Shown here: positions 7,066 through 41,711 of the stretch, in pieces
Position numbering within the stretch: the stretch's first letter is position 1
How the letters are laid out: every line of letters begins with the position of its first letter
DNA from: a virus
Lineage: Duplodnaviria > Heunggongvirae > Uroviricota > Caudoviricetes
Strand: one strand, 5' to 3'
DNA: 42,120 nucleotides
IMG/VR virus record: IMGVR_UViG_2534681763_000019
The notes under the pieces: generated by a model
Database searches by the model: none
Told to the model about the DNA's origin: nothing
The model's input: the letters and a program-made list of their open reading frames with translations, nothing else
Translations under genes and position numbers: made by a program

Positions 7066-7119
7066 TTTTCTGTCCTGTAAATTGGGTTCTGGCGCGGCAT
7101 TCCGCGCCGTTCAGATACA

Positions 7120-7635
7120 TCAGAGGCCGAGGGCGTTGCGGTGCGCTTCCATCAGGTCCACACCGTCCACAATTTCCACCATGTTGATAAGGTCCACTTC
7201 ATAGAGCACCTCACCATTGATAGTCAGCTTCGCGTAACTGTTGGTACTGGTCACTTTGGTGGTGTTGCTTTCGCCCGTCTTCCACTCGCCGGAGTCCACT
7301 TCTTTGTGACGTCCACGCACCACAAGCTCCACGGCCTGTACTTCCCCGGTATCATCACGCTGGATAGAGCCGGTAAAGCGCAACTGGATGCCATCCACCG
7401 TGGCTTTGCCCATCTGTTTAAACAGCAGCAGTTCAGTACCACCAATGGAAAATTCTGTGTCCAGAGCACTGTCATCAAGCCCCAGATCCACATCCACTGC
7501 ACCCGGCATTCCGCCGCCGCGATACTTCTCATATTTGCGGGTGAATTTCGGCAGCGTCAGCGACTCTACGATCCCCTGCCAGTTGTTCCCGTCGTTAAAC
7601 AGGTTCAGATGTTTTAATTTGCGTGGTAAAGCCAT
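7120..7635 (-). CDS. FII: Tail tube protein FII
   Basis: 171-aa ORF immediately downstream of the sheath gene; P2 FII position and size. Confidence 0.85.
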   Translation of the reverse strand: MALPRKLKHLNLFNDGNNWQGIVESLTLPKFTRKYEKYRGGGMPGAVDVDLGLDDSALDTEFSIGGTELLLFKQMGKATVDGIQLRFTGSIQRDDTGEVQAVELVVRGRHKEVDSGEWKTGESNTTKVTSTNSYAKLTINGEVLYEVDLINMVEIVDGVDLMEAHRNALGL

Positions 7636-13623: not shown

Positions 13624-14064
13624 TTGATGAAATCTTGGAAAAACCGAGGATTTAAAAAAAGGGTTCTTGAATATGTTTACTGTTTCTCCGCTGCTCCATT
13701 TTTAGCCATGTTCTACACGTTGTCAGAAAACCAGCTGACAATGTTTATAATTTTCTTCACTGTGAGTTTTTATCTCACTCTGATGGCATCCGTTTTTTTA
13801 ACAAAACGAGGATTTAACAAAGTATTCAAAGAATTCTTTAATTTATTATGGAACTATGAAACGGCCTTCGTTTTTTGCTATGGCCTTTATACTTATCTTT
13901 ATAGAATTGATGGGCAGAAAACTTTATCAAACCTCCTTACCATTATGTTTTCAGCTCACCCATGGACACTTATTTTCGGCATCGGACTCTTGGTTTTCAC
14001 AGTAATTTTCAGGTTTGCTCTGAGTGTTGCTGACTTGCTAGTTGAAGTTAAGTCAGATATATAA
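13624..14064 (+). CDS. AT-rich small membrane protein (moron between S and V)
   Basis: 146-aa ORF on the opposite strand to all flanking tail genes, strong RBS (taaggagg), markedly low GC, about four hydrophobic helices (FSAAPFLAMFYTL, FIIFFTVSFYLTLMASVFL, FVFCYGLYTYLY, WTLIFGIGLLVFTVIF). Confidence 0.65.
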   Translation: MMKSWKNRGFKKRVLEYVYCFSAAPFLAMFYTLSENQLTMFIIFFTVSFYLTLMASVFLTKRGFNKVFKEFFNLLWNYETAFVFCYGLYTYLYRIDGQKTLSNLLTIMFSAHPWTLIFGIGLLVFTVIFRFALSVADLLVEVKSDI

Positions 14065-20041: not shown

Positions 20042-21808
20042 ATGAACACCACACTGACACCCGCAGATCTCGATCCCCGTCGGCAGGCCATGCTGCTGTA
20101 CTTTCAGGGATACCGCGTAGCCCGCATTGCTGAAATGCTGGGCGAGAAAGTTGCAACCGTTCACAGCTGGAAAAAACGCGACAAGTGGGGTGACTATGGG
20201 CCGCTGGATCAGATGCAGCTCACCACCGCCGCACGCTACTGCCAGCTCATTATGAAGGAGCACAAAGAAGGGAAAGATTTCAAAGAGATTGACCTGCTGG
20301 CGCGCCAGTCGGAACGCCACGCGCGGATCGGCAAGTTTAACAATGGCGGTAACGAAGCCGACTTAAACCCTAACGTCGCCAACCGCAACAAAGGCCCACG
20401 CCGTCAGCCGGAAAAGAACGTTTTCACCGATGAACAAATTGAGAAGCTGGAAGAAATTTTCCATTCCTCCATGTTCAACTACCAGCGCCACTGGTGGGAA
20501 GCCGGAAAAACCAACCGCATCCGCAACCTGCTGAAGTCTCGCCAGATCGGCGCGACCTTCTATTTTGCCCGTGAAGCCCTGATTGACGCCCTGCTGACCG
20601 GACGTAACCAGATTTTCCTTTCCGCCAGCAAGGCACAGGCCCACGTCTTTAAGCAGTACATCATCGACTTCGCCAAAGAAGTGGAGGTGGAGCTGAAAGG
20701 CGATCCGATGGTGCTTCCTAACGGGGCCACGCTTTACTTCCTCGGCACCAATGCCCGCACGGCCCAGAGTTATCACGGCAACCTGTATCTGGATGAATAT
20801 TTCTGGATCCCAAAATTCCAGGAGTTGCGCAAAGTGGCTTCCGGTATGGCTATTCACAAGAAATGGCGGCAGACCTATTTTTCCACACCATCCAGTCTGA
20901 CCCACAGTGCTTATCCGTTCTGGTCCGGTGCGCTGTTCAACCGTGGGCGCAACAAAGCTGACAAGGTGGACATCGACCTGTCCCACAGCAATCTGGCCCC
21001 CGGCCTGCTGTGCGCAGACGGGCAATACCGCCAGATAGTCACCGTGGAAGATGCGGTGCGCGGCGGCTGTAACCTGTTCGACCTTGACCAGTTGCGCATG
21101 GAGTACAGCCCGGACGAATACCAGAACCTGCTGATGTGCGAGTTTGTTGACGATCTCGCGTCCGTGTTCCCGCTCAGCGAGCTGCAGGCGTGCATGGTGG
21201 ACAGCTGGGAAGTCTGGACCGACTTTCATGCACTGGCTCTGCGCCCGTTTGGCTGGCGCGAAGTGTGGATCGGTTATGACCCGGCAAAAGGTACGCAGAA
21301 CGGCGACAGCGCCGGGTGCGTGGTGGTGGCACCGCCAGCCGTGCCTGGTGGTAAGTTCCGCATTCTTGAGCGTCACCAGTGGCGCGGGATGGACTTCCGC
21401 GCCCAGGCTGACGCCATCAAAAAACTGACCGAGCAGTACAACGTGACCTACATCGGCATCGACTCGACCGGCGTCGGCCACGGGGTTTACGAGAACGTGA
21501 AAGCGTTTTTTCCAGCCGTCCGGGAGTTTGTCTACAACCCCAACGTTAAAAACGCTCTGGTACTCAAGGCCTACGACATTATCAGCCACCGCCGTCTGGA
21601 GTTTGACGCCGGGCACACCGACATTGCGCAGTCATTCATGGCAATCCGTCGCGCCACCACCGCCAGTGGCAACCGCCCAACCTATGAAGCCAGCCGCAGC
21701 GAAGAAGCCAGCCACGCCGATCTGGCCTGGGCAACAATGCACGCACTGTTTAACGAACCGCTGCAGGGCGAGTCCGCCAATACCAGCAATATTGTGGAGA
21801 TTTTTTGA
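20042..21808 (+). CDS. P: Terminase ATPase (large) subunit P
   Basis: 588-aa ORF divergent from O and coupled by 4-nt overlap to Q; P2 gpP size and position. Confidence 0.88.
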   Translation: MNTTLTPADLDPRRQAMLLYFQGYRVARIAEMLGEKVATVHSWKKRDKWGDYGPLDQMQLTTAARYCQLIMKEHKEGKDFKEIDLLARQSERHARIGKFNNGGNEADLNPNVANRNKGPRRQPEKNVFTDEQIEKLEEIFHSSMFNYQRHWWEAGKTNRIRNLLKSRQIGATFYFAREALIDALLTGRNQIFLSASKAQAHVFKQYIIDFAKEVEVELKGDPMVLPNGATLYFLGTNARTAQSYHGNLYLDEYFWIPKFQELRKVASGMAIHKKWRQTYFSTPSSLTHSAYPFWSGALFNRGRNKADKVDIDLSHSNLAPGLLCADGQYRQIVTVEDAVRGGCNLFDLDQLRMEYSPDEYQNLLMCEFVDDLASVFPLSELQACMVDSWEVWTDFHALALRPFGWREVWIGYDPAKGTQNGDSAGCVVVAPPAVPGGKFRILERHQWRGMDFRAQADAIKKLTEQYNVTYIGIDSTGVGHGVYENVKAFFPAVREFVYNPNVKNALVLKAYDIISHRRLEFDAGHTDIAQSFMAIRRATTASGNRPTYEASRSEEASHADLAWATMHALFNEPLQGESANTSNIVEIF

Positions 21809-22836
21809 TGGGAAAGAGTAAGAAGAACCGCGCTGCGTCGACGAAACAGATTCAGCATAAAAGCCAGACTTCAGCCGAAGCATTCAGCTTCGGTGATCCC
21901 GTTCCTGTTCTGGACCGCCGCGAATTGCTGGACTATGTGGAATGCGTACAGATGGATCGCTGGTATGAGCCGCCCGTCAGCTTTGACGGACTGGCACGAA
22001 CCTTCCGCGCCGCCGTGCATCACAGCTCACCGATTGCGGTGAAATGCAACATTCTGACCAGCACCTACATCCCTCACCCGCTGCTCAGCCAGCAGGCTTT
22101 TTCACGTTTTGTGCAGGACTATCTGGTATTCGGTAACGCCTACCTGGAGAAACGCACGAATCGATTCGGTGAAGTTATCGCCCTTGAGCCTGCGCTGGCA
22201 AAATACACCCGACGCGGATTAGATCTGGATACCTACTGGTTTGTGCAATACGGCATGACTACGCAGCCGTATCAGTTCACGAAAGGCAGCATCTTTCATC
22301 TGATGGAACCGGATATCAACCAGGAGATCTACGGCCTGCCCGGTTATCTTTCTGCCATTCCGTCAGCCCTGCTCAACGAGTCCGCCACGCTGTTCCGCCG
22401 CAAGTATTACATTAACGGCAGTCATGCAGGCTTCATCATGTACATGACCGATGCAGCGCAGAACCAGGAGGATGTGAACAACCTCCGCAATGCGATGAAA
22501 AGCGCCAAAGGTCCAGGCAACTTCCGCAACCTGTTTATGTACTCACCTAACGGCAAAAAGGATGGTCTTCAGATTATCCCGTTGTCAGAAGTCGCGGCGA
22601 AGGATGAATTTCTGAATATCAAAAATGTCAGCCGCGACGACATGATGGCTGCGCACCGCGTGCCGCCGCAAATGATGGGGATTATGCCTAATAATGTTGG
22701 AGGGTTTGGGGATGTAGAGAAAGCTAGTAAGGTTTTTGTTATAAATGAACTGATACCTTTACAAAAACGGTTACAAGAACTAAATTATTGGATAGATGAA
22801 GATATAATCCAATTTGAAGATTATAGTTTAACTTAA
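21805..22836 (+). CDS. Q: Portal protein Q
   Basis: 343-aa ORF downstream of P. The last ~150 nt are sharply AT-rich compared with the rest of the gene. Confidence 0.85.
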   Translation: MMGKSKKNRAASTKQIQHKSQTSAEAFSFGDPVPVLDRRELLDYVECVQMDRWYEPPVSFDGLARTFRAAVHHSSPIAVKCNILTSTYIPHPLLSQQAFSRFVQDYLVFGNAYLEKRTNRFGEVIALEPALAKYTRRGLDLDTYWFVQYGMTTQPYQFTKGSIFHLMEPDINQEIYGLPGYLSAIPSALLNESATLFRRKYYINGSHAGFIMYMTDAAQNQEDVNNLRNAMKSAKGPGNFRNLFMYSPNGKKDGLQIIPLSEVAAKDEFLNIKNVSRDDMMAAHRVPPQMMGIMPNNVGGFGDVEKASKVFVINELIPLQKRLQELNYWIDEDIIQFEDYSLT

Positions 22837-22873
22837 ATAATGATAACACAGGGCCTAGAATCGGCCCTAAAAA

Positions 22874-23545
22874 TTAAAAACCAAGCTCATCTCTGATTCT
22901 TGGGAATTTTTTCATTACTCGAATATCAGTTAATAAATGCCAACGCCAAAAAACAGAAAATGGATATGATACATTACACATTGGCTTTAGCTTATTCTTG
23001 GCCTCTTGGATTTCTTGTTCTGTGCTTCGATCACTGACAAGTTTCATTCTCCAACCAGTAAAGTAAAACAATTCATCTTGTAACTTCTCTGAGAGATTTG
23101 CTCTTGTAATGCCCCTCAACCCCGTACTCGAAGAGTTAAAACACTTATCTAATAATTTGACTGTATTTAAAACCTTTCTACTTGGTCTTTTTCTTCTTGG
23201 GTATACTTGAACACCACTCGTTATAGCGTTCCCTGCGAGATGAACAATCTCACTGAAAACATCAACATCACTCTTTGTGCAATCAAGTAAGTTTTCAAAA
23301 GAATCACTTTTAATACTATTGCATCGACTGCAAGCTAAAAATAGATTGTTCCAATCATATTTGAGCTCATCAAGATCACGATGTGGAATAAAATGTTCTA
23401 TCTCTGGATCCATAAGATTACCTTGCTCACAGAGATAACATTTTCCATGAAATATTTCGTCTAAAGCATTTACAACTGTTTTATGGTTATATACTTTTCT
23501 CGACAAGCATTGAGGTGCAGGAATATTTCTAGTAACATTAAACAT
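22874..23545 (-). CDS. HNH endonuclease, Septu PtuB-like
   Basis: 223-aa ORF with HNH signature (HGKCYLCEQ...EIEHFIPH...WNNLFLACSRCNSIKSD); RBS aaagggaag; overlaps the upstream ATPase gene by 8 nt; very low GC. Confidence 0.7.
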   Translation of the reverse strand: MFNVTRNIPAPQCLSRKVYNHKTVVNALDEIFHGKCYLCEQGNLMDPEIEHFIPHRDLDELKYDWNNLFLACSRCNSIKSDSFENLLDCTKSDVDVFSEIVHLAGNAITSGVQVYPRRKRPSRKVLNTVKLLDKCFNSSSTGLRGITRANLSEKLQDELFYFTGWRMKLVSDRSTEQEIQEAKNKLKPMCNVSYPFSVFWRWHLLTDIRVMKKFPRIRDELGF

Positions 23546-24776
23546 CGTCTTCCCTTTCGCTATAATCTAAATATTTACTCTTAGCGATCATAAAAGCTGC
23601 TTTTGAACTTTTATCAAGAAAATCAATACTCTTCTGTAACGTTTTCATTATAGAATGAAATCTATCGTCGAAGACATTATTTTCTACTAAAGTCATTAAT
23701 TCTTTAACTAATGCATTTAGCTTATCCGAAGATACATCCTCACCCAACAATCCCTTTATAATTGCTGTGTAAGAATACAATGATAAATCACCCATCTGAT
23801 CCAATGTTGAGAGATTAAATATAATCGCATCAGATACTGATTGGATTACGAAAGGTGAATGCGTAGAAACAATAAATTGTATTTGCGGAAAAGATGATGA
23901 AAAAAAACTAAATACTTTCTTTTGCAATGTTACATGAAGATGAGCATCAATTTCATCAATAAGTACTATCCCTGTCATATCATGTTTTCTGATTTTATCA
24001 AGCTCTGCTTTTATCAATAAATCAGTATAAATAGAAAGAATTGATGAAAAACCAGATGACAACTTATCAAGTCCAAATGGTTCCTTATTATTTTGTAAAA
24101 GATAGATTTTCAACTTGTCGAGATCAAAATCCATTCTAATACTTTCATCTTCAAAAAGTTCTTTTAAGTCATCATTAATACTCTCAATAATATCAAAGGC
24201 TCTTTTATAGTCATCATCCTTGCCCACTCCCTTACTGACTAAAGCATAATTCCACAATGTAACTATGTATCTTTCAAAATACATACCAGCATCAATCTTA
24301 GAATTATTTCTCTGTGCGTTCCCATACTCAGTTAACAACAAATCGAGGCTGCTAATCTTACCATCATTTTTTATTTTCGCTTCTCGAATAGCAGGAAATA
24401 ATCTTATAATTGATTTTTTCTTTTTTGCAGCAACCCTGAAATCAACCACATCATTAAAAGTAATATCAAAGCTCTCAAATTCTTTTAATTTTTCTTTCAG
24501 TCTCTCAATTTCTTCGTTTAAATAGCTATAATTACCATCCCCTCTATTTGAATACTTTAAGTTTTCTTGACTGGAATTCAATTCCTTTTGTAGCTGCTCC
24601 TTAGTATAAGGATCATGTGAATTAATCGATTTTTCTATAAACTCATAAATATTCTCGATCAACCTAGTTTTACCAGAGCCATTATCTCCTGATATTATTA
24701 GATTCTTACCATCAAGATTTAATGTGTAAGGCTCATCGTTCCTTTTAAAGAAGATAGTTTCGATGAAATGTCGCAT
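23538..24776 (-). CDS. ABC-type (AAA_15/21-like) ATPase, Septu PtuA-like
   Basis: Walker A GDNGSGKT, signature-like LSSGFSS, Walker B IVLIDEIDAHLH, H-loop STHSP. Start placed at the second Met (GGAGG 4 nt upstream); the ORF track starts 15 nt earlier at 24791. Confidence 0.7.
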   Translation of the reverse strand: MRHFIETIFFKRNDEPYTLNLDGKNLIISGDNGSGKTRLIENIYEFIEKSINSHDPYTKEQLQKELNSSQENLKYSNRGDGNYSYLNEEIERLKEKLKEFESFDITFNDVVDFRVAAKKKKSIIRLFPAIREAKIKNDGKISSLDLLLTEYGNAQRNNSKIDAGMYFERYIVTLWNYALVSKGVGKDDDYKRAFDIIESINDDLKELFEDESIRMDFDLDKLKIYLLQNNKEPFGLDKLSSGFSSILSIYTDLLIKAELDKIRKHDMTGIVLIDEIDAHLHVTLQKKVFSFFSSSFPQIQFIVSTHSPFVIQSVSDAIIFNLSTLDQMGDLSLYSYTAIIKGLLGEDVSSDKLNALVKELMTLVENNVFDDRFHSIMKTLQKSIDFLDKSSKAAFMIAKSKYLDYSEREDDV

Positions 24777-24866
24777 TATTCCTCCCGTCATACTTAATAG
24801 CTTTTAGATAATATGACATTACATGTTAGATTTCATCCGTTTTGTGAACATATCCACTGCCGCGCG

Positions 24867-24885
24867 CTCGTATCCCCGCCACGCC
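24867..24885. other. Putative cos (cohesive end) core
   Basis: Plus strand CTCGTATCCCCGCCACGCC is the reverse complement of GGCGTGGCGGGGATACGAG, sharing the first 13 nt with the 186/P2 cohesive end as I recall it (GGCG[T/A]GGCGGGGAAAGCA.). Orientation relative to Q matches the P2 left end. Confidence 0.4.
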
Positions 24886-25228
24886 TGCCCGCTTTATGTA
24901 GTGGTTTTCATGCGCCTGCATGACATAAGCAAAAGCCCGCCACTCCTGGCAGGCCTCAGCAAAAACGATCCTCTAACGATCATGCGATCTCATTCGTCAT
25001 AGTCATGCACAGCCAAGGGAAGCGTAAATCCGTATCTGAATGACCGCTGAAAAGCTAATCATACGGGTTTACAAAGATGAAAGTCCGCTGTGAGCGAAAA
25101 GCGGATATTTCCATTGTTTTATCTTGATCTAGTAAAAACAATACCCTCTTTACAAACAAAAATAATGAGTTACTATTTGCAGCACCTTTTAACCCAAAGG
25201 TTTATAATTAAAAAGGAATGGCATACCG

Positions 25229-25882
25229 ATGAATAAATACAAACTTTTCGCACAGCTATCAAGATATTCATTTGAAGCGCAGATTGATGATTTCGAAAAA
25301 TATATCCTAGGAGCAGGCGGCCAAAACAGAGTTGACTTATCGGAATTAAAAAAAGCATATGAAGATGAAAAAAAGAATGCTCCTGACGATTATATTAATT
25401 ACTTAGAAGACTATTATTCAGAGCAATATGATTTCTTAGTTAACATACAACCAAATATTTTTAATAAATCTGCTTTGGTATCTTTATACTCATGCTTAGA
25501 GCACAACCTAAACGACTATTGCAATATATGTCAAAGGATTGTAAACACCAATATATCAGTAACCGATTTTAATGGTGATGGCATCCACAAAGCAAAAAGA
25601 TATTTAACAAAATTAATGGATATAAACTTTGGCCTGTCACAAGAGTGGCGATTCATGACAGAGTTTAACAAAGTAAGGAATTGCATAGTTCATGCTAATG
25701 GAGACATTAAAAAAATGAGCACAGCTGTAGCCTTAAAAGATATCATTGATAAAACACCTACTCTTTCATTAAACAATGAAAATAATATAATAATCTCCTT
25801 AAATTATTTAAAAGATACTATCACAAAAATTAGAAAACTCTTTCAATGGTTATATACACATCTGGATCAATCATCGAAATGA
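25229..25882 (+). CDS. Hypothetical protein with HEPN-like R-x4-H motif
   Basis: 217-aa ORF, very AT-rich, with C-terminal motif KVRNCIVHANGD (R-x4-H) typical of HEPN RNase domains; sits at the old/tin-equivalent position between cos and A. Confidence 0.55.
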   Translation: MNKYKLFAQLSRYSFEAQIDDFEKYILGAGGQNRVDLSELKKAYEDEKKNAPDDYINYLEDYYSEQYDFLVNIQPNIFNKSALVSLYSCLEHNLNDYCNICQRIVNTNISVTDFNGDGIHKAKRYLTKLMDINFGLSQEWRFMTEFNKVRNCIVHANGDIKKMSTAVALKDIIDKTPTLSLNNENNIIISLNYLKDTITKIRKLFQWLYTHLDQSSK

Positions 25883-26134
25883 ATACGATAACATCTCAGT
25901 TTGTTATTGGTCTATTTTTGAAAACAGCTATCGATGATATTAGTCTGTTCTTCGTCAATTAATATGCAATCCGTTCATGACACAGGGCTGCTGTTACAGC
26001 CCTGACAACCTTAGACTTCAATCGATTCAGAGATCTCTAACGCATCATCACCCGTTGAACTCACAGCGATAAGTAGACGCTGGCGGCAATAACACAGAAG
26101 TGTAGCGGGAATTTGAACCACATAATTTGGTTTG

Positions 26135-27001
26135 TTAGATGGCTTTGCTTCGATATTCAATTTCTAAAATCGCCTTTGTCATTGCCGCAATAGTTATAGC
26201 TTCTACCATAGTCAATTCAGGCTTGTTCAAGCTTCCGTGTCCAGCAGTAGGTAATTTGTTACGTAAATCATAAATATCTTTAACAGCATCAATAAGATTC
26301 TTAGGTAATTTTGACATTTTTTCGAACTGTTTAAAAAAACCACCCAATGACTCATTTGCCACATTCGGGTTTTGAGTGATTTCCTTAGCCATAGTTTCTA
26401 AAACATTAGAGGCTGCGTGCAGTGCACCTGCCGGATCATTATTATCCAAGCAATTATTCATTCTATCTATTTGCTGAACGATATTTGGGTGCAATCTCTT
26501 TAAGTAATCACTAGCCAATTCTTCATTGAAATTTTTGACACTTTCAAAAACATCGCAATCTAAATAAAATTTAGGATTGACTGACATCCATGTATATTTC
26601 CAATCATTTTCTAAATTATCTTTTTCCGCAATACGCCTGCCAGTGTCCTGATCTATCTCATCAACATATTTACACATATAATCGGCGTAGTAGTGTAAAT
26701 ATCTAAATGATATTTCTGGGCAAAAATTACTAACTGATGCAAGGCCGCCATATTCTTTTGTAGTAACTGTAGGGACTTCTTCATCACATAAAGATGAGAA
26801 AGTGGTTCTTTCCCAAAATTCGCCCAACTCTTTTTCTTTCCTAGTTGCCATACCAGCTATCATATTGATGCTTGAGAGCAAAACTACACTCTGATAGTAT
26901 CGAGGACATCTGTATGAACTAGCATATGGGCATATTGATGATGCTTTACGATTAATACGCTCTTTTTCCCACCAATTTTTATCAGGAATAATTCTTTGCA
27001 T
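26135..27001 (-). CDS. Hypothetical protein (accessory cargo)
   Basis: 288-aa ORF, AT-rich, convergent with the HEPN-like gene, Cys/Tyr-rich N-terminus and helical C-terminus with LRNKLPTAGHGS; no family assignable by eye. Confidence 0.5.
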   Translation of the reverse strand: MQRIIPDKNWWEKERINRKASSICPYASSYRCPRYYQSVVLLSSINMIAGMATRKEKELGEFWERTTFSSLCDEEVPTVTTKEYGGLASVSNFCPEISFRYLHYYADYMCKYVDEIDQDTGRRIAEKDNLENDWKYTWMSVNPKFYLDCDVFESVKNFNEELASDYLKRLHPNIVQQIDRMNNCLDNNDPAGALHAASNVLETMAKEITQNPNVANESLGGFFKQFEKMSKLPKNLIDAVKDIYDLRNKLPTAGHGSLNKPELTMVEAITIAAMTKAILEIEYRSKAI

Positions 27002-27489
27002 AATTTAGCTACTATCTCACGAGTGAATGAATGTTTAGCCTTCTGCACAGTTTATCAGTTCCGGCATGCCTACTGCTACCCCACTGATTCAACTTCAAGT
27101 TATGAGTTAAAGCGATTCGGTTTCGCTAGATGACACACTAGTGTTAATTTATGGATAAAAATTTATCACTTAAAATTAACTAATGCCTGTTGCGACCAAA
27201 AGTGTGCTGGAATATTATTTTCGTCTGGCCTATTATCAAGCTAATTATCCAAATTAGAGTTACTCTCATTCATCAGCAACAAATAAATACACCTGTTCAC
27301 TTTCTCAAAGTGTTCCTGTTTTATTTTTAAAGCAAACAACGCCGCCTATTCGTCCGAATGTACAACAAACATCAGGTTCTGACACAAAGTGGACGATCAC
27401 TTATCAAAATGACCGCCCACCTTACACCTCATTTCACTCGTTGCCCAAACTCCCCCCAACAGGATAAATCCTCTTGGGGGCAACGTTTC

Positions 27490-27723
27490 TTAATGCAGCC
27501 AGCTGTCGTCTTCCCACACCTTCTGCATAATTTTCAGCACTTGTTTTCTTTCTTCGTCCAGTTGCAGTACGGTCAGTTCCACACCGTTAGAGCTACCTTT
27601 GCGGATACGAATTACCGTTTTGGGATACAGGGGGCGCAGATTGCGGTAAAGCTCGGATTCAAGGGCATCCAGGGTAGACTGGCTAATCTTCTGCTCTTTA
27701 TCGATCATTATTTCAATGCGCAT
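27490..27723 (-). CDS. DinI-like protein (Tum-region)
   Basis: Translation from the internal Met (MRIEIMIDKEQ...IMQKVWEDDSWL) follows the DinI pattern (MRIEV... ...ETWESADDWF); the ORF track's longer N-terminal extension was not used. Confidence 0.65.
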   Translation of the reverse strand: MRIEIMIDKEQKISQSTLDALESELYRNLRPLYPKTVIRIRKGSSNGVELTVLQLDEERKQVLKIMQKVWEDDSWLH

Positions 27724-27733
27724 AAAAGTCACC

Positions 27734-27922
27734 TCAGCTGATGACATCCATTGAGCGGTTGTATTCGTGGGTTCTGATTTTTGCCATGAGTTCATCAGTC
27801 AATTCAGAAACCCACTGCAGAGCCAGCCCCTTCTCTTCATCACTACACTCACTAGCCGCTACAAGCTTAAGAAAAAAATCAATGCGCTGGAGCTTCAAAG
27901 ACTCCAAAAAATAGTCCTGCAT
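27734..27922 (-). CDS. Small hypothetical protein, first gene of LexA-box operon
   Basis: 62-aa ORF from MQDYFLESL... with a strong RBS (AGGAGGAAAG) 4 nt upstream; the longer 96-aa ORF-track version would read through the LexA box. Confidence 0.5.
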   Translation of the reverse strand: MQDYFLESLKLQRIDFFLKLVAASECSDEEKGLALQWVSELTDELMAKIRTHEYNRSMDVIS

Positions 27923-27963
27923 CTTTCCTCCTATAACACCACGAGCAATACTGTATACATGAC

Positions 27964-27983
27964 CACTGTTTATATTTACAGTA
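27964..27983. promoter_or_regulatory. LexA (SOS) box CACTGTTTATATTTACAGTA
   Basis: CTGT-N8-ACAG with AT-rich spacer, 17/20 to consensus TACTGTATATATATACAGTA; overlapped by -10-like TATAAT/TATACT elements; a half-site (CTGTATACATGA) lies just upstream. Confidence 0.55.
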
Positions 27984-28075
27984 TATAATAATCTTACTGA
28001 TGTAAAACGTTTTTTTACGTTCATCAGCCTGATATGCCTGGTATTATTAAGAGCACGAATTGTTAATCCGCGTAA

Positions 28076-30514
28076 TTAATACAGGTTCCGCCACTTATCA
28101 TCTTCCTGTAAACGCTGATTCCGATAGAAGATACGCAGGCCAGCCCCTGACGGAATACTGCCTCCGCGAAGGAGTAAATCGACCTCTTTCTCGCTGCCAT
28201 CAAATCCTCTGGACTTCAGTTCATAGACGAGCTGCTGTCGCTGATGGTCTGTAATTCGCTGTTTGTAGTCTTTGCGCCGTTTCGGTTTCACCTGGCGTAA
28301 CCTTGCAGCCAGTTCCCGACGCTCTTTTTTGCTCATACTGTGCAGATAATCGTGCAACTCCTTGTCATCCTGGCGGGTAATGTCAGTTCTGGTGTCCCCA
28401 TCAGCTGATTTATCTTTCTCCTGTTGGTTCAAATTTTCAGCAAGGGGACAGTTATTGCCACGAGTCCGAGTCCGAGTCCGAGTCCGAGTCCAAGGGGCGC
28501 AAGCGCCCTTGTCGGCTGCCGCCTCCTGAACGTCAACGGCCTTACGAACCATTTTCCACTTCACTGCATGAGTGCAGATCTTGCCCTCTGCAATGGGTGA
28601 CCAGATGCCATAAATACGAATACCGTGATCGCCATAGGCGGTCGGCTCTTCGTTGATTTCATAAGCAGTTCTGATGAGGTGATATTTGCGGGGAACCAGT
28701 ACGCCGCCCTGCTTCATGATGTAGGTGGCAAAACAACCAGCATCAGCAGCAGCCAGGATTGCATCAAGGCGCGGGTTATCCAGTACCGGCGCACCTGCTT
28801 TTTTGTCCCCCTGCTGCCTTGCCGCCTGACCAGCCAGCAATCGCAGTTCACGGTAAGCCTGACGCCCCGGAATGCCAAAGAAGCGGAATTGCTGAACACG
28901 ATGCAGAGACGCCCAAGCATTAACGTATTCAGCGTTATCACGCAGGGATTTACCCGTTTCCTTGCTGATCTCGCCAGCCAGACCACGCCCGTCAATGTTC
29001 TTACTGATGTATTTCGCGATGTAGCTTGTTGGCGTACCTTTGCGCGGGTTTATCAGCTCGGACTTAAAGCGTGGTCCCGTGTTATTACCCAGCTCCTCGC
29101 GGTCTTCACGAATGGCAAACTTACGCAACAAAGCAGTAATGGCGCGGCGATCTTTTTTGCGCATAAAACACAACAGGTGCCAGTGAACTGTACCGTCGTG
29201 ATGCGGCTCAGCCACCCGCACGCCATACCAGCGCAACCCGGCTTTGTGCATCGCCTTACGAAATGCAGCAAACATACCGACCAGATAATCACTGCTTTGT
29301 CTTACCGTCGCATTTGTCCAGGTTGGGTTGGGCCTGCCGTTATTTAGCGTGGAATGGAAACGTGACGGACAGGTGATGGTGTAGAAAACGGCGCAGTCAC
29401 CGCGCATTTCCGCGATAAGCTCCAGACCTTTAACACAGGCCATCATCTCATTGCGGCGATGCGCAGGGTTGCTGCTGCTGGCGTTTACCACATCCTCCAT
29501 GTCCAGCGTGTCGCCGTCTTCGTTCACCAGTTCATGAGAACGGAAAAACTCCAGCGACTTACGGCGCTGCTCACGTTTATGCATCACGGCTTCATAGCTG
29601 ACATAAGGAGATGCTTTTTTGCTAACCAGGCAGACAGCGCGCAACTGCTCTTCCCGCCATTCGCAACGCATCTTCCATAATTTCCGATACCACCAGTCGG
29701 CGCACAACATACGCGCCAGCGAACCCGGAATGAGTTCATAGGGCACGGGTTTACGGCGGTTTCTTTTCCGACGGAGTTGCTCAAACGCAGGCGGGATAAC
29801 ATCCAGACGCAGGGTTTCCGCTGCCACCTTTTCCCACGTCTTGCGGATTTCTTCTGGCTTAACGTCATCGGTGGCATACAAATCACCACAAGCGGCATCA
29901 AGGCACATGCTCATATGCGCAGCAACAAGGGTAGACAGACGCTTCACCTGATCCTGACTCATTTCAGGCAGGATCAGCAGGCCGTCCAGCCCTTCATGGC
30001 TTGCCATAAAGCGAAAAGAAGTGGATAGCTGACAGTCGCGTACATGCTCCAGTCGTTCCAGACATGGCTTAATCGTCTCACGCAAATAGCGGGAATAAGC
30101 CTTTGGCCTGCCCAGGCTGCTGAAGTATTCAATACGTTGCATCAGCGGCTTGCTGATATGGGAAGGCTGGGCATTGACGTCCGCCAGAATGACCATATCT
30201 GGATTAAAACGCTGCTGCTCATGCGCCAGCTTTGCCCGGCTAATGAGTTTATCCTGCTCCATTTCGCGTTGGACAGGATCACGGGATTCATTAAAGAAAT
30301 AACGCTCCCAGACCTGATCACTCAGTGCCTCGCGGCGCAGTTGTTCCAGCTCGTTATCGACAGCGTACAGAGTGATCAGGTTTGAAAGCGCAGAAACCGG
30401 CGCAACTTCCGCCGGGTCCAGATAAGGGTTAATGGCCTTTTTCGGGCTGTTCCATGAGAATGCTGCGGCGACCTCGTTAAAGCCGCTGCAGTTGTTCATA
30501 TCAGCATGGCTCAT
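28076..30514 (-). CDS. A: Replication initiation protein A (rolling-circle nickase)
   Basis: 812-aa ORF with HUH-like motif (TVHWHLLCF); largest early gene, coupled to the upstream dam gene by 4-nt overlap. Confidence 0.85.
28461..28491. repeat. Hexanucleotide tandem repeat (CGAGTC)x5 inside gene A
   Basis: cgagtccgagtccgagtccgagtccgagtcc; encodes (TR)5 in the A protein and contains five tandem GAGTC pentamers. Confidence 0.9.
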
Positions 30515-35522: not shown

Positions 35523-36191
35523 ATGAATAGCGAACTAGAGTTACTTATAAAAATATTATTCCCTTCCCTATCTGCCATTATATCCTTATTAGGGCTTAAA
35601 ACAGGGTGGACTTATAAAAAAGACAAACTATTCACATCACGTAAAAACATTAGCGAATTTTCATATCAGATGTATAAAAGCAGTGAAGATCCGACCTTCA
35701 AAAAACTGGCGGAAGATTACGGCATTGCTGCATTAACCAAAGATAACACATTGACAAAAAAACAAAGATTAATATTACTCAACACAACAAACCCCGTTAG
35801 CGATATAGATAATTATTCCAAATGTCAAAGTCTAATTTCCATTACCACCCATAAAGAAATATTCGCATGGAATAAAAAAAGATATAAATACAGCATATAT
35901 AGAAAATTAATAAAAATCATAACAACTCTAATTTACTTCATGAGCAGTCTCATCGTAGCACTTCCTTTCAGTTATTCTGTTGTAGTAAGTGCTAAGATGA
36001 TGGAGAAGATAAACCATCTAACTACTTGGCAATACTTTGGTTTAAGCAGCTATTTTGTGGTATCGGGAGTAGCAATATGCTTTATCTGCCTAGATAAGCT
36101 CTCCAAGATTAAGATCGCCGAGAGATTAATCGTTTCGAATAGGCGTTTAGGCGACAAATGCAGTGGCGGCACTTTGGCGGCAGAAAGTTAA
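35523..36191 (+). CDS. AT-rich membrane protein (moron between int and attR)
   Basis: 222-aa ORF, very low GC, hydrophobic helices (LFPSLSAIISLLGL, IITTLIYFMSSLIVALPF, YFGLSSYFVVSGVAICFICL). Confidence 0.6.
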   Translation: MNSELELLIKILFPSLSAIISLLGLKTGWTYKKDKLFTSRKNISEFSYQMYKSSEDPTFKKLAEDYGIAALTKDNTLTKKQRLILLNTTNPVSDIDNYSKCQSLISITTHKEIFAWNKKRYKYSIYRKLIKIITTLIYFMSSLIVALPFSYSVVVSAKMMEKINHLTTWQYFGLSSYFVVSGVAICFICLDKLSKIKIAERLIVSNRRLGDKCSGGTLAAES

Positions 36192-38242: not shown

Positions 38243-40009
38243 TTATGGTAGCATCATTGATACATAATCCACACCAATCCTTGAGCTATACTGAGACGCT
38301 ATAGCCTGATATCTTTCTGCATAACCAGTTCTCAGTTGAGATTTAAGTTTGAGTCGGACAGGAACATTTTGCACGTTGCCATCCATATTACTTAAAAACA
38401 CGGCAGAAATAATATTTTTTTCTTCGCCATCAACTGTTGTTCCATGATTCAACACCACCATATAATCAACAACAGGAAGCGTTTTATCCCCTTCGAAAAT
38501 AGAGAGATATTTTCTTTGATTTTTATGCATTACATATATATATTTCGAATGTTCAGCAAATGGCAATGCTTTACTCTGACTGGCGTTAAAAAGCTCCAGA
38601 ACTTTAATGAGCCTGTGCGGACTTAATCTTACATGGTGAGGGTCGTTACCCTGAGTAGGAACCAAATCACATGCCGCAGATACACATAAATACCATTTGT
38701 TCGACTCTGTATCAAAGAAAATAGTGCCAGTAGAAATATGACCATCTTCAAAATTCTTTGAAGACAAATTCATATTTAAAGCATGATACATTTCGTGATA
38801 AGTATCATTATTTGATGGCAGATCCATTTTTGAAGAGCAATATTGGAGCAATGCAGCAACTCCGCTGTTAGCGTATTCATTTGAATAGCTATCAAAAACA
38901 CTTTTGATAAATTCATCCAGCGTATTATTATTTTTAAGTCTTTGATAAAGCTCTTCTGATAAATTACCAAATACAAAGTCAATATTTCTACATCTAATAT
39001 CAGGCGAGTCTGATTTTAATATCTCATTTAACCACGCAGCTTGACCGTAATGATCGTTAGCCAAATGATTTACAAAAGATAAAGCCTCAGCTTCGATTGC
39101 ATTCTGAATTTCAGATTTTATTAACTGATAATAAGATGGTTTCCATTCAATGAGAGAATCATTGAGAGTTTGCCAAATCCTATCTCCATCGTTTTCATGA
39201 TCATCTTGAACCTTATGAAATAGGGAGACAAAGATATTACCACATTGAATCCATTTTACTCCGCTTTCATCACCCCGAATGACATTGCCAGATGTGTTGC
39301 TAGAAATAATTGCATTTCTAGACACAGCATATTCTGCAATCATTTTTGCAATGAAGTTTTTATCCTTTTGATCCTCCAACACAGCATCATCATGTATTAA
39401 TCTTTTAATTCTTCTACAAGGCTTACTGTCTTTAATATAGGCTATTGTTTCATCTCTTGTGAGAGCTTTATTACCATTATCATTTAAGTTCGGTAATACA
39501 ACGTCTTCCCAATAACTTTGGACATCTTCATTATCGTAGTCAATGATCAAGCTGTTGATATCCAGAGCACCTTTGAGAGTCGATGATATCTGCATCCAAA
39601 CCGTTTCTAAATTCTCTCTAGTATATATTACAATCATATTTAAATGATCGGAGTCTTTCAAATCTTGTAATAGTTTAAGTGTTTTATCAGGTGCATTATT
39701 ATCAAGATGATAATCTACAATAATAAGATCTGATTTTCTAATCCGATCCACATCGAAATTAACAGAACCATTGTCAACATCACAAATCATATTTTTAGAT
39801 TGTAAAAAGCTCTCAAGAGTAGCGGCTCGTTTAGATGAGTCAATTTTGTTGTAGTCTAAATCAACTTCGTTATTCAACGCCCTGATTGATTCAGAATACG
39901 TCAGAAAATCGTCATCAATCATGACAACGGAACGAATTGCATTTTCGCAGAAAGTTTTCTGGACAAGAGAATTATAATTTGCCACTGTCATATTAGAACT
40001 CCACTCCAT
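38243..40009 (-). CDS. Receiver (REC)-domain protein with large uncharacterised C-terminal domain
   Basis: 588-aa ORF. N-terminus has receiver-domain hallmarks: acidic pocket VVMIDDD, phospho-Asp-like DLIIVDYHL, conserved Thr MIVIYT. No HTH evident in the ~450-aa C-terminal region. Start overlaps the upstream kinase-like gene by 17 nt. Confidence 0.7.
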   Translation of the reverse strand: MEWSSNMTVANYNSLVQKTFCENAIRSVVMIDDDFLTYSESIRALNNEVDLDYNKIDSSKRAATLESFLQSKNMICDVDNGSVNFDVDRIRKSDLIIVDYHLDNNAPDKTLKLLQDLKDSDHLNMIVIYTRENLETVWMQISSTLKGALDINSLIIDYDNEDVQSYWEDVVLPNLNDNGNKALTRDETIAYIKDSKPCRRIKRLIHDDAVLEDQKDKNFIAKMIAEYAVSRNAIISSNTSGNVIRGDESGVKWIQCGNIFVSLFHKVQDDHENDGDRIWQTLNDSLIEWKPSYYQLIKSEIQNAIEAEALSFVNHLANDHYGQAAWLNEILKSDSPDIRCRNIDFVFGNLSEELYQRLKNNNTLDEFIKSVFDSYSNEYANSGVAALLQYCSSKMDLPSNNDTYHEMYHALNMNLSSKNFEDGHISTGTIFFDTESNKWYLCVSAACDLVPTQGNDPHHVRLSPHRLIKVLELFNASQSKALPFAEHSKYIYVMHKNQRKYLSIFEGDKTLPVVDYMVVLNHGTTVDGEEKNIISAVFLSNMDGNVQNVPVRLKLKSQLRTGYAERYQAIASQYSSRIGVDYVSMMLP

Positions 40010-41711
40010 TGAACTGGATCACAAAATTAGCGCCATCTTTTATTAAATAGTTATCGCCTTCATCAGGTTCTGAATACCATATTTTATGATGTGCAACAGC
40101 AAGGTTTTCTCGACATAGATACAGACCTACCCCATGTCCATTTGCTCTTTTGCTATAAAATAGTTCAAATAGTCGCGGGATATCATCGGTATCAATTGCC
40201 GGACCAGAATTTGCTATGATAACCAAAGAATTCACAAAACCAATCTTTATGAGCCTATTATTTGACAGACTGACCCAATACATTGCATTGTTGATAATAT
40301 TAGTAAAAACAGGATAGATCCTTGATGGTATATCTGTTATTGCGATTTGCTTAAACTCTTCACTAAATTCAATAGTTATTCGTTGCCGTTCGAAACGCTC
40401 CCCAAAGAACTTCAGGACATAATCCATGATATTTTTTCCAGTTATTCTCTGCCTGGATTGATAACCTGATATTTTCAAAGGTGATAAGAAACGTATTTGT
40501 TGAGTAAGCGATCTGTGAGCATTTAACGCCAATGAAAAACCAGGGTGTTCTTTTACAGAAGTAGGAAGAGAGTTTAGTCCTCTGGTTACCATAGAATCCA
40601 TTTCTTCAAGTTCATGAGATATTATCTCAACACTAATACCTAACTGTGCAAGCGCGTTTAAACTTTTAGCTTTTTCTTCAAAATATGAGCGTTCTTCTTC
40701 AGATAATGAGAATGCTGAATCTAAGTTTATACCTTCAAATAATCTATCGAGACCTTTTATTATTGATTGATATTTGAAAGTTAGGGTATCAACTGACTCA
40801 ACATATAAACTATCGAGCAAATTAAACACATTTTCAATTTGTGAATCATTATCTATTGAATCAACAACTGATATAGTTTTAGCATAATAATCACTTCGAT
40901 CAACCTTTATTTCATCGGCCCATTTTTTTAAAAGAGAATGTATCTTCTCCTCTATCGTGTTATTAAACTTAGTTAGTTTAGAATTAATAATACCTTGATT
41001 TTTTTCAAGGTGATTTTTCGCTGACAATGAAGGCTCAAGTTTATTTAATTCAGAATCAAGTTTATTAATTGCTAACTTCATTTGTAGAATATACGCAGAG
41101 AACTCATTAAATTTATCTCTGTAGTCTCTATATTTCTCTTCATACATTCCAAGTTTTGGAGGTTTGATAGGCGTTTTAATTTCACTGCGCAACGCATCTA
41201 AGTTTGTAAGATCACTGTCTATAATTTTAAGATAGTTTAAATCTAACGAACCATCAGTTTTATCAAGCTTAGTTTTCAGCCTTTTAACAGCCTCCAAGGA
41301 AGCATCAAGAACTGGTGTCTGATTCTTCAAAGCTTCTGAAAAACTTTTTTGTGTTGATTTTCGAGCTTGTTGTTGAGCAGATTTTCTTAACTCTTTTTCA
41401 CGCTTAACTTGTTCTAAAAGCTCTTTACGGTCATCAGAACGTGAACCAAAAAATCTATCAGCAAGTTCAGTTAACAAATTAGATATAATAGTTTTCAGTT
41501 CTCTTGCAGCCTGGTTTCTTATGAATCCCTCTCTCCCCGACTTATCTTTCAGCTCTTTATTACTGGATTGAGTAATTCCAATATAACCAAAAATCCTTCT
41601 ATTAGACCAATAATATCGCCCTGCATTCCATGAACGTCTTTCTTCTATCTGGAAGAAATCATTATCTACTCGACCATAAGGTAATACTCTCAAGCTATCC
41701 CTAAAAATCAT
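39993..41711 (-). CDS. Soluble histidine-kinase-like protein (DHp + HATPase_c), 5' end possibly truncated by IS3
   Basis: 572-aa ORF. H-box-like IISHELEEM, N-box FTNIINNAMYW, G1-like IIANSGPAID, G2-like ANGHGVGLY; long coiled-coil-rich region upstream; no TM segments. The same frame stays open upstream of the first Met to the IS3 end at 41832. Confidence 0.7.
   Translation of the reverse strand: MIFRDSLRVLPYGRVDNDFFQIEERRSWNAGRYYWSNRRIFGYIGITQSSNKELKDKSGREGFIRNQAARELKTIISNLLTELADRFFGSRSDDRKELLEQVKREKELRKSAQQQARKSTQKSFSEALKNQTPVLDASLEAVKRLKTKLDKTDGSLDLNYLKIIDSDLTNLDALRSEIKTPIKPPKLGMYEEKYRDYRDKFNEFSAYILQMKLAINKLDSELNKLEPSLSAKNHLEKNQGIINSKLTKFNNTIEEKIHSLLKKWADEIKVDRSDYYAKTISVVDSIDNDSQIENVFNLLDSLYVESVDTLTFKYQSIIKGLDRLFEGINLDSAFSLSEEERSYFEEKAKSLNALAQLGISVEIISHELEEMDSMVTRGLNSLPTSVKEHPGFSLALNAHRSLTQQIRFLSPLKISGYQSRQRITGKNIMDYVLKFFGERFERQRITIEFSEEFKQIAITDIPSRIYPVFTNIINNAMYWVSLSNNRLIKIGFVNSLVIIANSGPAIDTDDIPRLFELFYSKRANGHGVGLYLCRENLAVAHHKIWYSEPDEGDNYLIKDGANFVIQFNGVEF

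What the first reader, a model, noticed from the sequence alone, without database searches (positions are those of the whole stretch)
22680..27489. Accessory hotspot between Q and A spans the cos site; compositional break lies inside the 3' end of Q
GC content drops abruptly within the last ~150 nt of the portal gene and stays low to about 27.5 kb. In P2 the cos site lies within about 100 bp of the Q stop, whereas here about 2 kb of cargo separates Q from the cos-like motif at 24867-24885, and further cargo occupies the old/tin-equivalent side. The portal C-terminus is encoded by cargo-like DNA, suggesting hotspot exchange by recombination inside conserved flanking genes. This is the classic P2-family defence hotspot region, here loaded with at least four candidate genes.
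Basis: partly seen in the sequence, partly recalled or inferred. Interest (0 to 1): 0.45.

Follow-up and report, generated by a model that had tools for sequence, protein, structure and literature searches.

The report
Phage defence hotspot includes portal-gene tail
This is the known anti-phage gene hotspot around the DNA-packaging (cos) site of a P2-family prophage, and the last ~145 bases of the essential portal gene travel with the swappable defence genes, which suggests how the genes are exchanged.

Summary
The window holds a 186/Fels-2-like P2-family prophage, 100% identical to five E. coli genomes over 21800-28100. GC falls from 0.53 to 0.29 at about 22690, inside portal gene Q. It stays at 0.31-0.36 to about 27.4 kb, except for a GC 0.55 cos island (24861-25010). 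The Q side carries a Septu operon (ptuA/ptuB). The A side carries two convergent HEPN-fold genes.

I compared 85 related loci with 52 different Q-side cargoes.
- The Q tail follows the cargo. Same-cargo pairs are 98% identical in the tail and 95% in the adjacent Q body. Different-cargo pairs are 67.5% (maximum 83%) against 92%.
- Every cargo joins cos at the same nucleotide (24861).
- Linkage switches within the 25 bp that hold cos. The cos island follows the A-side cargo, not the Q-side cargo.
- Phages without Q-side cargo (P2, 186, two survey loci) have GC-normal tails.

The best reading is two terminal modules uncoupled by cos, each swapped by one homologous crossover. On the left that crossover falls in Q.

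The hotspot itself is well known (1996-2026). I did not find the portal-tail linkage or the break at cos in the papers I could read.

The parts
21808..22836 (+). Portal gene Q (342 aa), the conserved left flank of the hotspot
   Evidence: Pfam Phage_portal, E 1.6e-16. RefSeq annotation in the identical ETEC-2265 locus. 90-95% nt identity to relatives up to about 22690.
22691..22836 (+). Cassette-linked AT-rich tail of Q (last ~48 codons). The boundary is uncertain by about 15-30 nt.
   Evidence: GC 0.288, GC3 0.17. Same-cargo pairs are 0.984 identical and different-cargo pairs 0.675. The identity profiles cross at 22675-22705. pS is saturated and pN/pS is 0.32.
22849..22869 (.). GC-rich hairpin between the convergent Q and ptuB stop codons; a likely bidirectional terminator
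   Evidence: Terminator-like hit and sequence. Function is inferred.
22874..23545 (-). ptuB, the Septu HNH nuclease (223 aa)
   Evidence: PADLOC PtuB, E 1.8e-82, full length. Pfam HNH, E 1.3e-7. CxxC...HFIPH...CxxCN motifs are visible in the translation.
23538..24791 (-). ptuA, the Septu ABC/SMC-type ATPase (417-aa ORF; the RefSeq start at 24776 gives 412 aa). It overlaps ptuB by 8 nt.
   Evidence: PADLOC PtuA, E 7.3e-122. Pfam AAA_21, AAA_15 and SMC_N. Walker A GDNGSGKT, signature LSSGF and Walker B VLIDEID are present.
24861..24885 (.). Near-invariant CGCGCG plus the 19-nt cos-like cohesive-end sequence (24867-24885). This is the sharp right edge of the Q-side cargo.
   Evidence: All 52 cargo types join at the same nucleotide (boundary 24861). 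15/19 identity to the 186 cos and 14/19 to the P2 cos, with shared flanks. Cleavage was not tested.
24861..25010 (.). cos island (GC 0.55), conserved in all relatives and linked to the A-side module
   Evidence: blastn boundaries. Identity is 0.99 when the right cargo is the same and 0.87-0.91 when it differs, whatever the left cargo. A conserved hairpin lies at 24889-24904.
25229..25882 (+). 217-aa stand-alone HEPN-like protein; candidate abortive-infection RNase
26135..27001 (-). 288-aa protein with a Cys-rich N-terminal domain and a C-terminal HEPN/Abi_C-like domain
   Evidence: Foldseek hits to HEPN structures 1ufb, 1o3u and 5yep (prob 0.98-1.0, TMt 0.53-0.67). Weak Pfam Abi_C, E 0.0017. 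Invariant C24, C32, C94, C149, H171; near-invariant R247 and H255. Homologues occur from Enterobacterales to Vibrio and Pseudomonas.
25011..27489 (.). A-side (old/tin- and orf97-equivalent) cargo segment, type R3
   Evidence: About 99% identical in L004, L005, L006 and L069, which carry three other Q-side cargoes. Absent from 22 of 71 loci.
27490..27723 (-). DinI-like gene (homologue of the C-terminal domain of 186 Tum), the conserved right flank
   Evidence: Pfam DinI, E 3.7e-20. 40% identity to 186 Tum. Homology with all relatives resumes at the stop codon, 27492.
27966..27981 (.). LexA-box-like palindrome CTGTTTATATTTACAG upstream of the small-ORF/dinI operon
   Evidence: The only CTGT-N8-ACAG match in the window. 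It lies at the position equivalent to the LexA-controlled p95 promoter of 186.
28076..30514 (-). Replication endonuclease gene A, the outer conserved flank
   Evidence: RefSeq annotation and ORF translation.

Best explanation
The region is the cos-flanking accessory (anti-phage defence) hotspot of a 186/Fels-2-like P2-family prophage. It consists of two independently exchangeable terminal modules.

The left module becomes the left end of the packaged linear genome. It runs from about 6 bp beside the cos cut, through a Septu ptuA-ptuB operon transcribed towards Q, and into the last ~145 nt of the portal gene.

The right module becomes the right end of the packaged genome. It comprises the ~130-bp cos island plus two convergent HEPN-fold genes, and it ends at the dinI/tum stop codon.

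Cos cutting and re-annealing uncouple the two ends. A single homologous crossover in the conserved backbone is then enough to swap a whole module between co-resident P2-like genomes. On the left, the nearest usable homology is inside Q.

The stretch of Q nearest the cargo is too close to be recombined away. It has therefore been inherited with each cassette for a very long time. It has diverged to synonymous saturation and drifted AT-rich, but it still encodes a functional portal C-terminus.

Shown: the composition, the gene identities, both boundaries, and the linkage patterns.
Inferred: the recombination route, the cause of the AT drift, and the defence activity of the genes.
For: Identity of the hotspot. 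Relatives share only Q, the cos island and dinI-A. The literature describes this locus.

Cargo. Septu HMMs match at E 1e-122 and 1e-82. Both A-side genes have HEPN folds.

Tail-cargo linkage.
- 53 same-cargo pairs: tail identity 0.984, adjacent Q body 0.952.
- 3517 different-cargo pairs: tail 0.675 (maximum 0.83), adjacent body 0.919.
- In 33 same-cargo pairs from diverged backgrounds, identity equals the background up to about 22675, then rises to 0.97-0.995.

Co-divergence with Septu orthologues. Tail/ptuB/ptuA identities are 90/93/91% (Salmonella), 90/90/86% (Enterobacter), 79/79/75% (Citrobacter) and 74/72/70% (IMG/VR loci). The Q body stays at 80-88% throughout.

Age of the tails. Tail pS is 0.84 (saturated) against 0.28 in the body. 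Synonymous divergence rises as a gradient from about 22600.

Cargo-less phages. P2, 186, L068 and L086 have GC-normal tails.

The cos boundary. All 52 cargo types join at the same nucleotide.

Linkage switch across the 25-bp cos.
- Same left cargo, different right cargo (21 pairs): the last 60 nt of left cargo are 0.96 identical, but island positions 26-75 are 0.89 (background level).
- Different left cargo, same right cargo (301 pairs): 0.30 and 0.99.

Independence of the two sides. The window's right cargo occurs with four different left cargoes.

No mobile-element signs. There are no flanking repeats and no recombinase gene.
Against: The recombination route was not observed. The 25 invariant bp at cos could also host rare homologous or other exchanges.

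The A side shows almost no divergence creeping into dinI (0.971 against 0.952). The flank-hitchhiking picture is therefore asymmetric. I explain this only by inference: conserved intergenic blocks on that side may supply homology.

One P2-lineage locus (L177) carries Q-side cargo after the tQ terminator and has a GC-normal tail. An AT-rich tail is thus not an obligatory consequence of cargo.

The cause of AT enrichment is untested. It could be mutation bias without recombination, or import from low-GC donors.

The survey loci are the 80 best IMG/VR matches plus 10 chosen relatives, not a random sample.

No defence phenotype was tested.
Confidence: 0.75

Rival explanations
1. The AT-rich Q tails were imported together with the cassettes from P2-like phages of low-GC hosts. 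In this view crossovers are forced into the last strongly conserved Q motif (PPQMMGIMPNNVGGFGDVEKA), so the tails are donor DNA rather than locally diverged DNA.
For: Tail GC correlates with cargo GC (rho 0.44, p 0.001). The breakpoint lies next to the most conserved block of Q. The tails differ from each other about as much as P2 Q differs from this Q.
Against: Septu orthologues in Salmonella, Enterobacter and Citrobacter show the tail diverging gradually together with the cargo inside enterobacterial phages. Synonymous divergence rises as a gradient from about 22600 rather than as a step. No low-GC donor with a wholly AT-rich Q was found, although the genome-contig scan that looked for one returned nothing. 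This rival is not exclusive of the main explanation, because it concerns only the origin of the AT bias.
Confidence: 0.2
2. The portal C-terminus is under diversifying selection of its own, for example to escape portal-sensing defence systems or satellites. Its association with cargo would then be incidental.
For: The C-terminal ~35 residues vary strongly between phages. That portal proteins are sensed by some defence systems is my own knowledge and was not tested here.
Against: pN/pS is 0.32, below 1, and synonymous sites are saturated. GC3 shifts too, which protein-level selection does not explain. Linkage to cargo type is perfect: no different-cargo pair shares a tail. Cargo-less phages keep a GC-normal tail.
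Confidence: 0.05
3. The cargo was inserted by a mobile element or a site-specific recombinase (transposon, integron-like cassette, Xer-type site) that targets the cos-proximal spacer.
For: The junction at cos is razor-sharp and identical in all cargo types. I recall, but could not read, an older paper (Nilsson 2004) that proposed site-specific recombination for P2 variable regions.
Against: There are no direct or inverted flanking repeats. The cargo holds no transposase or recombinase gene. The Q-side boundary is a divergence gradient inside a gene, not a defined site. The 2026 survey found transposable elements almost absent from these hotspots.
Confidence: 0.03
4. The GC drop inside Q is ordinary local compositional noise or an annotation artefact, with the real Q ending earlier.
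For: None found.
Against: The tail lies outside the whole backbone distribution of 146-nt windows (0 of 2075). The ORF is colinear with P2 gpQ and 186 W to the last residues. The same feature recurs in all 50 cargo-bearing types.
Confidence: 0.01

Closest known systems
P2-family cos-proximal defence hotspot between gpQ and gpA (old/tin locus of P2; Rousset et al. 2022, PMC9122126; Vassallo et al. 2022, PMC9519451; Moura de Sousa et al. 2026, PMC13586616)
   Same: Same position, same flanking genes, adjacent to cos, AT-rich, extreme turnover of defence genes between near-identical phages. Rousset et al. also speculated that cohesive ends plus a second homologous event mediate the exchange.
   Different: Those papers treat Q-to-A as one locus and measure linkage on whole proteins, reporting little linkage with core genes. 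Here the locus resolves into two independently assorting arms split at cos. The left arm extends ~145 nt into Q.
Retrons Ec67/Ec86 in a 186-related prophage (Dodd & Egan 1996, Virology 219:115; known to me only through citations in PMC5694545, PMC6868368 and PMC7826664)
   Same: Foreign DNA occupies the same Q(W)-side slot between cos and the packaging gene. A retron St85 system sits there in relative L007.
   Different: That case was described as a replacement between cos and the terminator downstream of W. Here, and in 50 of 52 cargo types, the cassette-specific DNA runs past the terminator into the coding 3' end of the portal gene. L177 in the P2 lineage fits the 1996 description. I could not read the original paper.
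Septu type I (PtuA ATPase plus PtuB HNH nuclease; Doron et al. 2018)
   Same: Two overlapping genes, full-length matches to PADLOC PtuA/PtuB models, intact Walker A/B and HNH motifs.
   Different: Only a weak match to the retron-Ec78-associated PtuAB models of NCBIfam, and no retron RT or ncRNA nearby. Activity was not tested.
Phage 186 SOS operon p95-tum-orf97 next to cos
   Same: A DinI/Tum-like gene preceded by a LexA-box-like site. A non-essential cargo gene lies downstream on the same strand, between tum and cos.
   Different: The cargo is unrelated to Orf97. The Tum homologue here is the short DinI-like form. A second, convergent HEPN gene is present.
Stand-alone HEPN abortive-infection and toxin proteins (HepT toxins, Abi_C/AbiJ-type, prophage HepS)
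   Different: No significant sequence-family membership. The 288-aa protein has R-x7-H rather than the canonical spacing, plus a novel Cys-rich N-terminal domain. No partner antitoxin is evident.
Hitchhiking divergence of genes that flank hypervariable loci under balancing selection (for example gnd beside the O-antigen cluster). This is an analogy from my own knowledge.
   Same: Divergence at neutral sites peaks at the variable locus and decays with distance into an otherwise conserved gene.
   Different: Here it occurs in a phage structural gene, over only about 150-250 nt. One boundary is fixed by a packaging site.

Membership tests
P2-family cos-flanking defence hotspot | Lies between portal gene Q and replication gene A of a P2-like (Peduoviridae) prophage | tested here: met
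   Gene order N-O / P-Q / cargo / cos / cargo / dinI / A, with a full P2-type late-gene set.
P2-family cos-flanking defence hotspot | [quoted passage not shown] | tested here: met
   The cos-like 19-mer at 24867-24885 lies 6 bp from the left cargo and about 125 bp from the right cargo.
P2-family cos-flanking defence hotspot | Gene content varies between otherwise near-identical phages | tested here: met
   52 Q-side types among 85 loci and 23 A-side types among 71 loci, with a Q body about 92-95% identical.
P2-family cos-flanking defence hotspot | Cargo confers anti-phage defence | not testable with these tools
   Supported only by homology (Septu HMMs, HEPN folds).
Septu (type I) | PtuA: AAA_15/AAA_21 ABC-type ATPase matching PtuA profiles | tested here: met
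   PADLOC PDLC00268, E 7.3e-122, residues 6-413 against profile positions 1-409 of 411. Pfam AAA_21 and AAA_15 score above their cut-offs.
Septu (type I) | PtuB: HNH nuclease matching PtuB profiles, adjacent and co-oriented | tested here: met
   PADLOC PDLC00331, E 1.8e-82, full length. Pfam HNH scores above its cut-off. The genes overlap by 8 nt on the minus strand.
Septu (type I) | Catalytic motifs intact | tested here: met
   GDNGSGKT, LSSGF, VLIDEID and STHSP in PtuA. CxxC, HFIPH and CxxCN in PtuB. All read from the translations.
Retron-associated PtuAB (retron Ec78 type) | Equivalog-level match plus an adjacent reverse transcriptase and msr-msd RNA | tested here: not met
   NCBIfam PtuA scores 86 bits against a cut-off of 500, and PtuB 24 against 150. 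There is no RT gene and no Rfam hit.
P2/186-type cos site | 19-nt cohesive-end sequence with conserved flanking core | tested here: met
   15/19 identity to 186 and 14/19 to P2, in register. Shared flanks gcgcg... and ...tgcccgctttatg..ggtttt.atgc. Conserved in 52 types.
P2/186-type cos site | Cleaved by terminase to give 5' cohesive ends | not testable with these tools
   Requires virion DNA end-mapping.
HEPN superfamily (217-aa protein) | Rx4-6H motif on a four-helix HEPN fold | tested here: met
HEPN superfamily / Abi_C (288-aa protein) | HEPN fold with a conserved R...H motif | tested here: inconclusive
   The fold criterion is met for the C-terminal ~120 aa (Foldseek prob 0.98-1.0, TMt 0.53-0.67). 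Pfam Abi_C scores 18.9 bits, below its cut-off of 24. The conserved R247 and H255 are spaced R-x7-H, which is not canonical.
Transposon / integron-like cassette | Flanking repeats, target duplication or a recombinase gene | tested here: not met
   No meaningful repeats. No such genes among the ORFs.

The most novel reading that the evidence does not exclude
The cos site acts as a built-in recombination breakpoint. It turns the two sides of the hotspot into independently assorting chromosome ends, each swappable by one crossover.

The portal-gene tail is then an ancient cassette-specific allele that has hitchhiked with each defence cassette. Its ancestral composition is known (GC3 about 0.65-0.8 in cargo-less phages). 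Its fall to GC3 about 0.33 would therefore show that the AT-richness typical of defence cassettes can arise in place, in DNA shielded from recombination, and need not reflect foreign low-GC origin.
Probability: 0.4. Interest if true: 0.65.

Novelty: new member of a known kind. Interest (0 to 1): 0.5.

Why it matters
How phage defence hotspots are exchanged so fast is explicitly open. Rousset 2022 offers only a speculation, and Moura de Sousa 2026 lists homologous, illegitimate and domain-mediated recombination as unresolved options.

This locus and its relatives give sequence-level footprints of the process. One junction is pinned to cos and the other is a crossover zone about 150 nt inside the portal gene. 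The two arms are unlinked.

This makes the mechanism directly testable by crosses. It also gives a practical marker, because the Q-tail sequence predicts the adjacent cassette. Finally, it warns that hotspot boundaries defined by gene calls miss part of the exchanged unit.

The cargo also adds two uncharacterised HEPN-fold candidates to test for defence.

Tried and rejected
- Chi sites (GCTGGTGG) as an explanation for the crossover zone: none anywhere in the window.
- Flanking direct or inverted repeats: only chance-level short matches.
- Rfam scan for a retron or other ncRNA across 22000-28200: no hits.
- Relic portal tails inside 52 cargo types (tblastn): none. The ancestral Q-cos spacer survives as only 27-39 nt next to cos in two types.
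- PtuA scan of genome contigs to look for a low-GC donor: no confirmed hits.
- Pfam, NCBIfam and PHROGs for the 217-aa and 288-aa proteins: nothing above threshold. Foldseek against the PDB for the 217-aa model: nothing significant.
- Homology of the 288-aa protein to 186 Orf97: none.
- Nilsson 2004 and Odegrip 2006 could not be read. Dodd & Egan 1996 is known only through citing papers. I therefore cannot exclude that the divergence of the portal 3' end was already noted there.
- The sigma-70 promoter scan was uninformative: 24 sites found against 21.8 expected.

Full report
**What the window is.** Positions 21800-28100 are 100% identical to five E. coli genomes, including ETEC-2265. The annotated locus shows a complete P2-family prophage of the 186/Fels-2 type, with CI, CII, Fil, a Tum/DinI-like gene, and ogr. 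The gene order is N and O (minus strand), P and Q (plus strand), cargo, cos, cargo, dinI-like gene, small ORF, and A (minus strand).

**Check of the observation.**
- GC is 0.53 in the Q body and 0.288 in the last 146 nt of Q. GC3 is 0.65 in the body and 0.17 in the tail (Fisher p = 3e-10). No 146-nt window of the structural backbone is as low (0 of 2075).
- The low-GC tract runs to about 27.4 kb. It is interrupted by a GC 0.55 island at 24861-25010.
- The reverse complement of the 19-mer at 24867-24885 is GGCGTGGCGGGGATACGAG. It matches the 186 cos at 15/19 and the P2 cos at 14/19, in the same register and with the same flanks.
- The Q stop is 2030 bp from this motif. In P2 the distance is 167 bp and in 186 it is 176 bp.

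**Cargo.**
- The Q side holds ptuA (23538-24791) and ptuB (22874-23545), which overlap and are transcribed towards Q. They match PADLOC Septu models over their full length (E 7e-122 and 2e-82), and their catalytic motifs are intact. They are not the retron-Ec78 type, and no ncRNA was found.
- The A side holds two convergent genes with no family assignment.
- The 288-aa protein has a C-terminal HEPN fold (Foldseek prob about 1.0), a weak Abi_C match, and a Cys-rich N-terminal domain.
- Both proteins are candidate abortive-infection RNases. This is an inference.
- The 288-aa gene lies downstream of, and on the same strand as, a dinI/tum-like operon. That operon is preceded by the only LexA-box-like site in the window (27966-27981). 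This mirrors the p95-tum-orf97 arrangement of 186, but the 288-aa protein is unrelated to Orf97.

**Boundaries against relatives.** blastn against ten annotated relatives shows three conserved pieces.
- Q is conserved up to about 22770-22840.
- A cos island starts at exactly 24861 in every relative.
- dinI-A is conserved from 27368-27492 onwards.

L004, L005 and L006 share the window's A-side cargo at about 99% identity but carry other Q-side cargo: another Septu, a P-loop NTPase, and an LPO_1073-family protein.

**Survey.** The Q protein retrieved 80 IMG/VR loci. With the relatives above, 85 loci contain both Q and cos.
- They carry 52 unrelated Q-side cargo types of 153-3491 bp.
- Same-cargo pairs (53) have tails 0.984 identical, while the adjacent 300 nt of Q are 0.952 identical.
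- Different-cargo pairs (3517) have tails 0.675 identical (maximum 0.83), while the adjacent Q is 0.919 identical. There is no exception.
- In 33 same-cargo pairs from diverged phage backgrounds, identity along Q equals the background level until about 22675. It then rises to 0.97-0.995. In different-cargo pairs it falls from 0.79 to 0.40 over the same stretch.
- Across types, amino acids are invariant up to about 22723. Tail pS is 0.84 (saturated) and pN/pS is 0.32. In the body pS is 0.28 and pN/pS is 0.04.
- Synonymous divergence already rises from about 22600.
- Tail GC3 averages 0.33 against 0.64 in the body, and tail GC correlates with cargo GC (rho 0.44).
- Cargo-less phages (P2, 186, L068, L086) have GC-normal tails.

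**Independent confirmation from Septu orthologues.** Septu orthologues found by protein search sit in the same slot in Salmonella, Enterobacter and Citrobacter prophages. Their Q tails track the identity of the cargo, not that of the Q body.

| Locus | Q tail | ptuB | ptuA | Q body |
|---|---|---|---|---|
| Salmonella (L103) | 90% | 93% | 91% | 83-86% |
| Enterobacter (L105) | 90% | 90% | 86% | 82-86% |
| Citrobacter (L107) | 79% | 79% | 75% | 82-86% |
| IMG/VR (L097, L098) | 74% | 72% | 70% | 80-88% |

**The cos side.** All 52 cargo types abut the same nucleotide...|CGCGCG + 19-mer. A-side cargo falls into 23 types among 71 loci, and 22 loci have none. Linkage flips within the 25 bp that contain cos.

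| Pair class | n | Last 60 nt of left cargo | Island positions 26-75 |
|---|---|---|---|
| Same left, different right | 21 | 0.96 | 0.89 |
| Different left, same right | 301 | 0.30 | 0.99 |
| Different left, different right (background) | 2151 | 0.30 | 0.905 |

The cos island therefore belongs to the right-end module, and the two arms assort independently.

**Mechanism (inferred).** In a cos phage the two sides of cos are the two ends of the packaged genome. Cutting and re-annealing uncouple them. One homologous crossover in the backbone then swaps a terminal module.

- On the left, the only available homology is Q. The part of Q nearest the cargo cannot be recombined away and has diverged with each cassette.
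- This matches, and sharpens, the speculation in Rousset 2022.
- It contrasts with the "little linkage with core genes" reported from whole-protein scores in 2026.
- There are no Chi sites, flanking repeats or recombinase genes.

**Caveats.**
- The A side shows almost no divergence entering dinI.
- One P2-lineage locus (L177) has Q-side cargo after the tQ terminator and a normal tail. That fits Dodd & Egan's 1996 description and shows that tail divergence is historical, not obligatory.
- The origin of the AT bias is unresolved. It could be in-situ drift or import from low-GC donors.
- The older primary papers could not be read.

**Verdict.** The hotspot is a known kind of system, and this locus is a new member of it: Septu plus two HEPN-fold genes. 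The portal-tail linkage and the linkage break at cos are fine-scale features that I did not find described in the papers I could read.

Noticed in passing
L177:5001-7958 (IMG/VR, P2 lineage): Of 80 P2-lineage loci, this is the only one with Q-side cargo (about 1.85 kb, GC 0.33, ORFs of 353 and 204 aa). The cargo begins after the tQ terminator, and the Q tail is P2-like with GC 0.51. The other 79 have no Q-side cargo.
   Followed up: partly
L109 and L110 (Klebsiella variicola), about 5001-7400: A Septu orthologue (PtuA 75% aa identity) is kept in a degraded P2-like remnant. Only a ~400-nt 3' fragment of Q remains beside ptuB, followed directly by gpD/ogr.
   Followed up: partly
window 27966-27981: The only CTGT-N8-ACAG (LexA-box-like) site in the window lies upstream of the small-ORF/dinI-like operon. 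This is equivalent to the SOS promoter p95 of 186. The 288-aa HEPN gene lies downstream on the same strand, so SOS read-through is possible.
   Followed up: partly
window 24889-24904: A hairpin followed by a T-run lies immediately on the A side of cos. It is conserved in P2 and 186 and is probably part of the 55-bp cos core.
   Followed up: no
window 13627-14064 (+): An AT-rich (GC about 0.42) hypothetical ORF sits in opposite orientation between the baseplate V and virion morphogenesis genes. This is the position of the P2 orf30-type accessory slot.
   Followed up: no
window 35523-36191 and 38243-41711: Further AT-rich islands lie beyond the integrase. One is a hypothetical gene (GC about 0.33). 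The other is a pair annotated 'response regulator receiver domain' plus 'ATP-binding protein', next to a second integrase-domain gene. This may be another defence island or a satellite.
   Followed up: no
window 28076-30514 (-), A protein near residue 660: The replication endonuclease contains a TRTRTRTR dipeptide repeat. A-gene lengths differ between relatives (794-812 aa).
   Followed up: no
L006:1509-2534: The portal gene of E. coli PEC422 is annotated as a pseudogene (internal stop), although its hotspot cargo is intact.
   Followed up: no
window 27369-27491 and 25011-25105: Two short blocks inside the A-side cargo are shared (82-94% identity) with several otherwise different A-side cargo types. 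They may supply the homology that keeps divergence out of dinI.
   Followed up: partly
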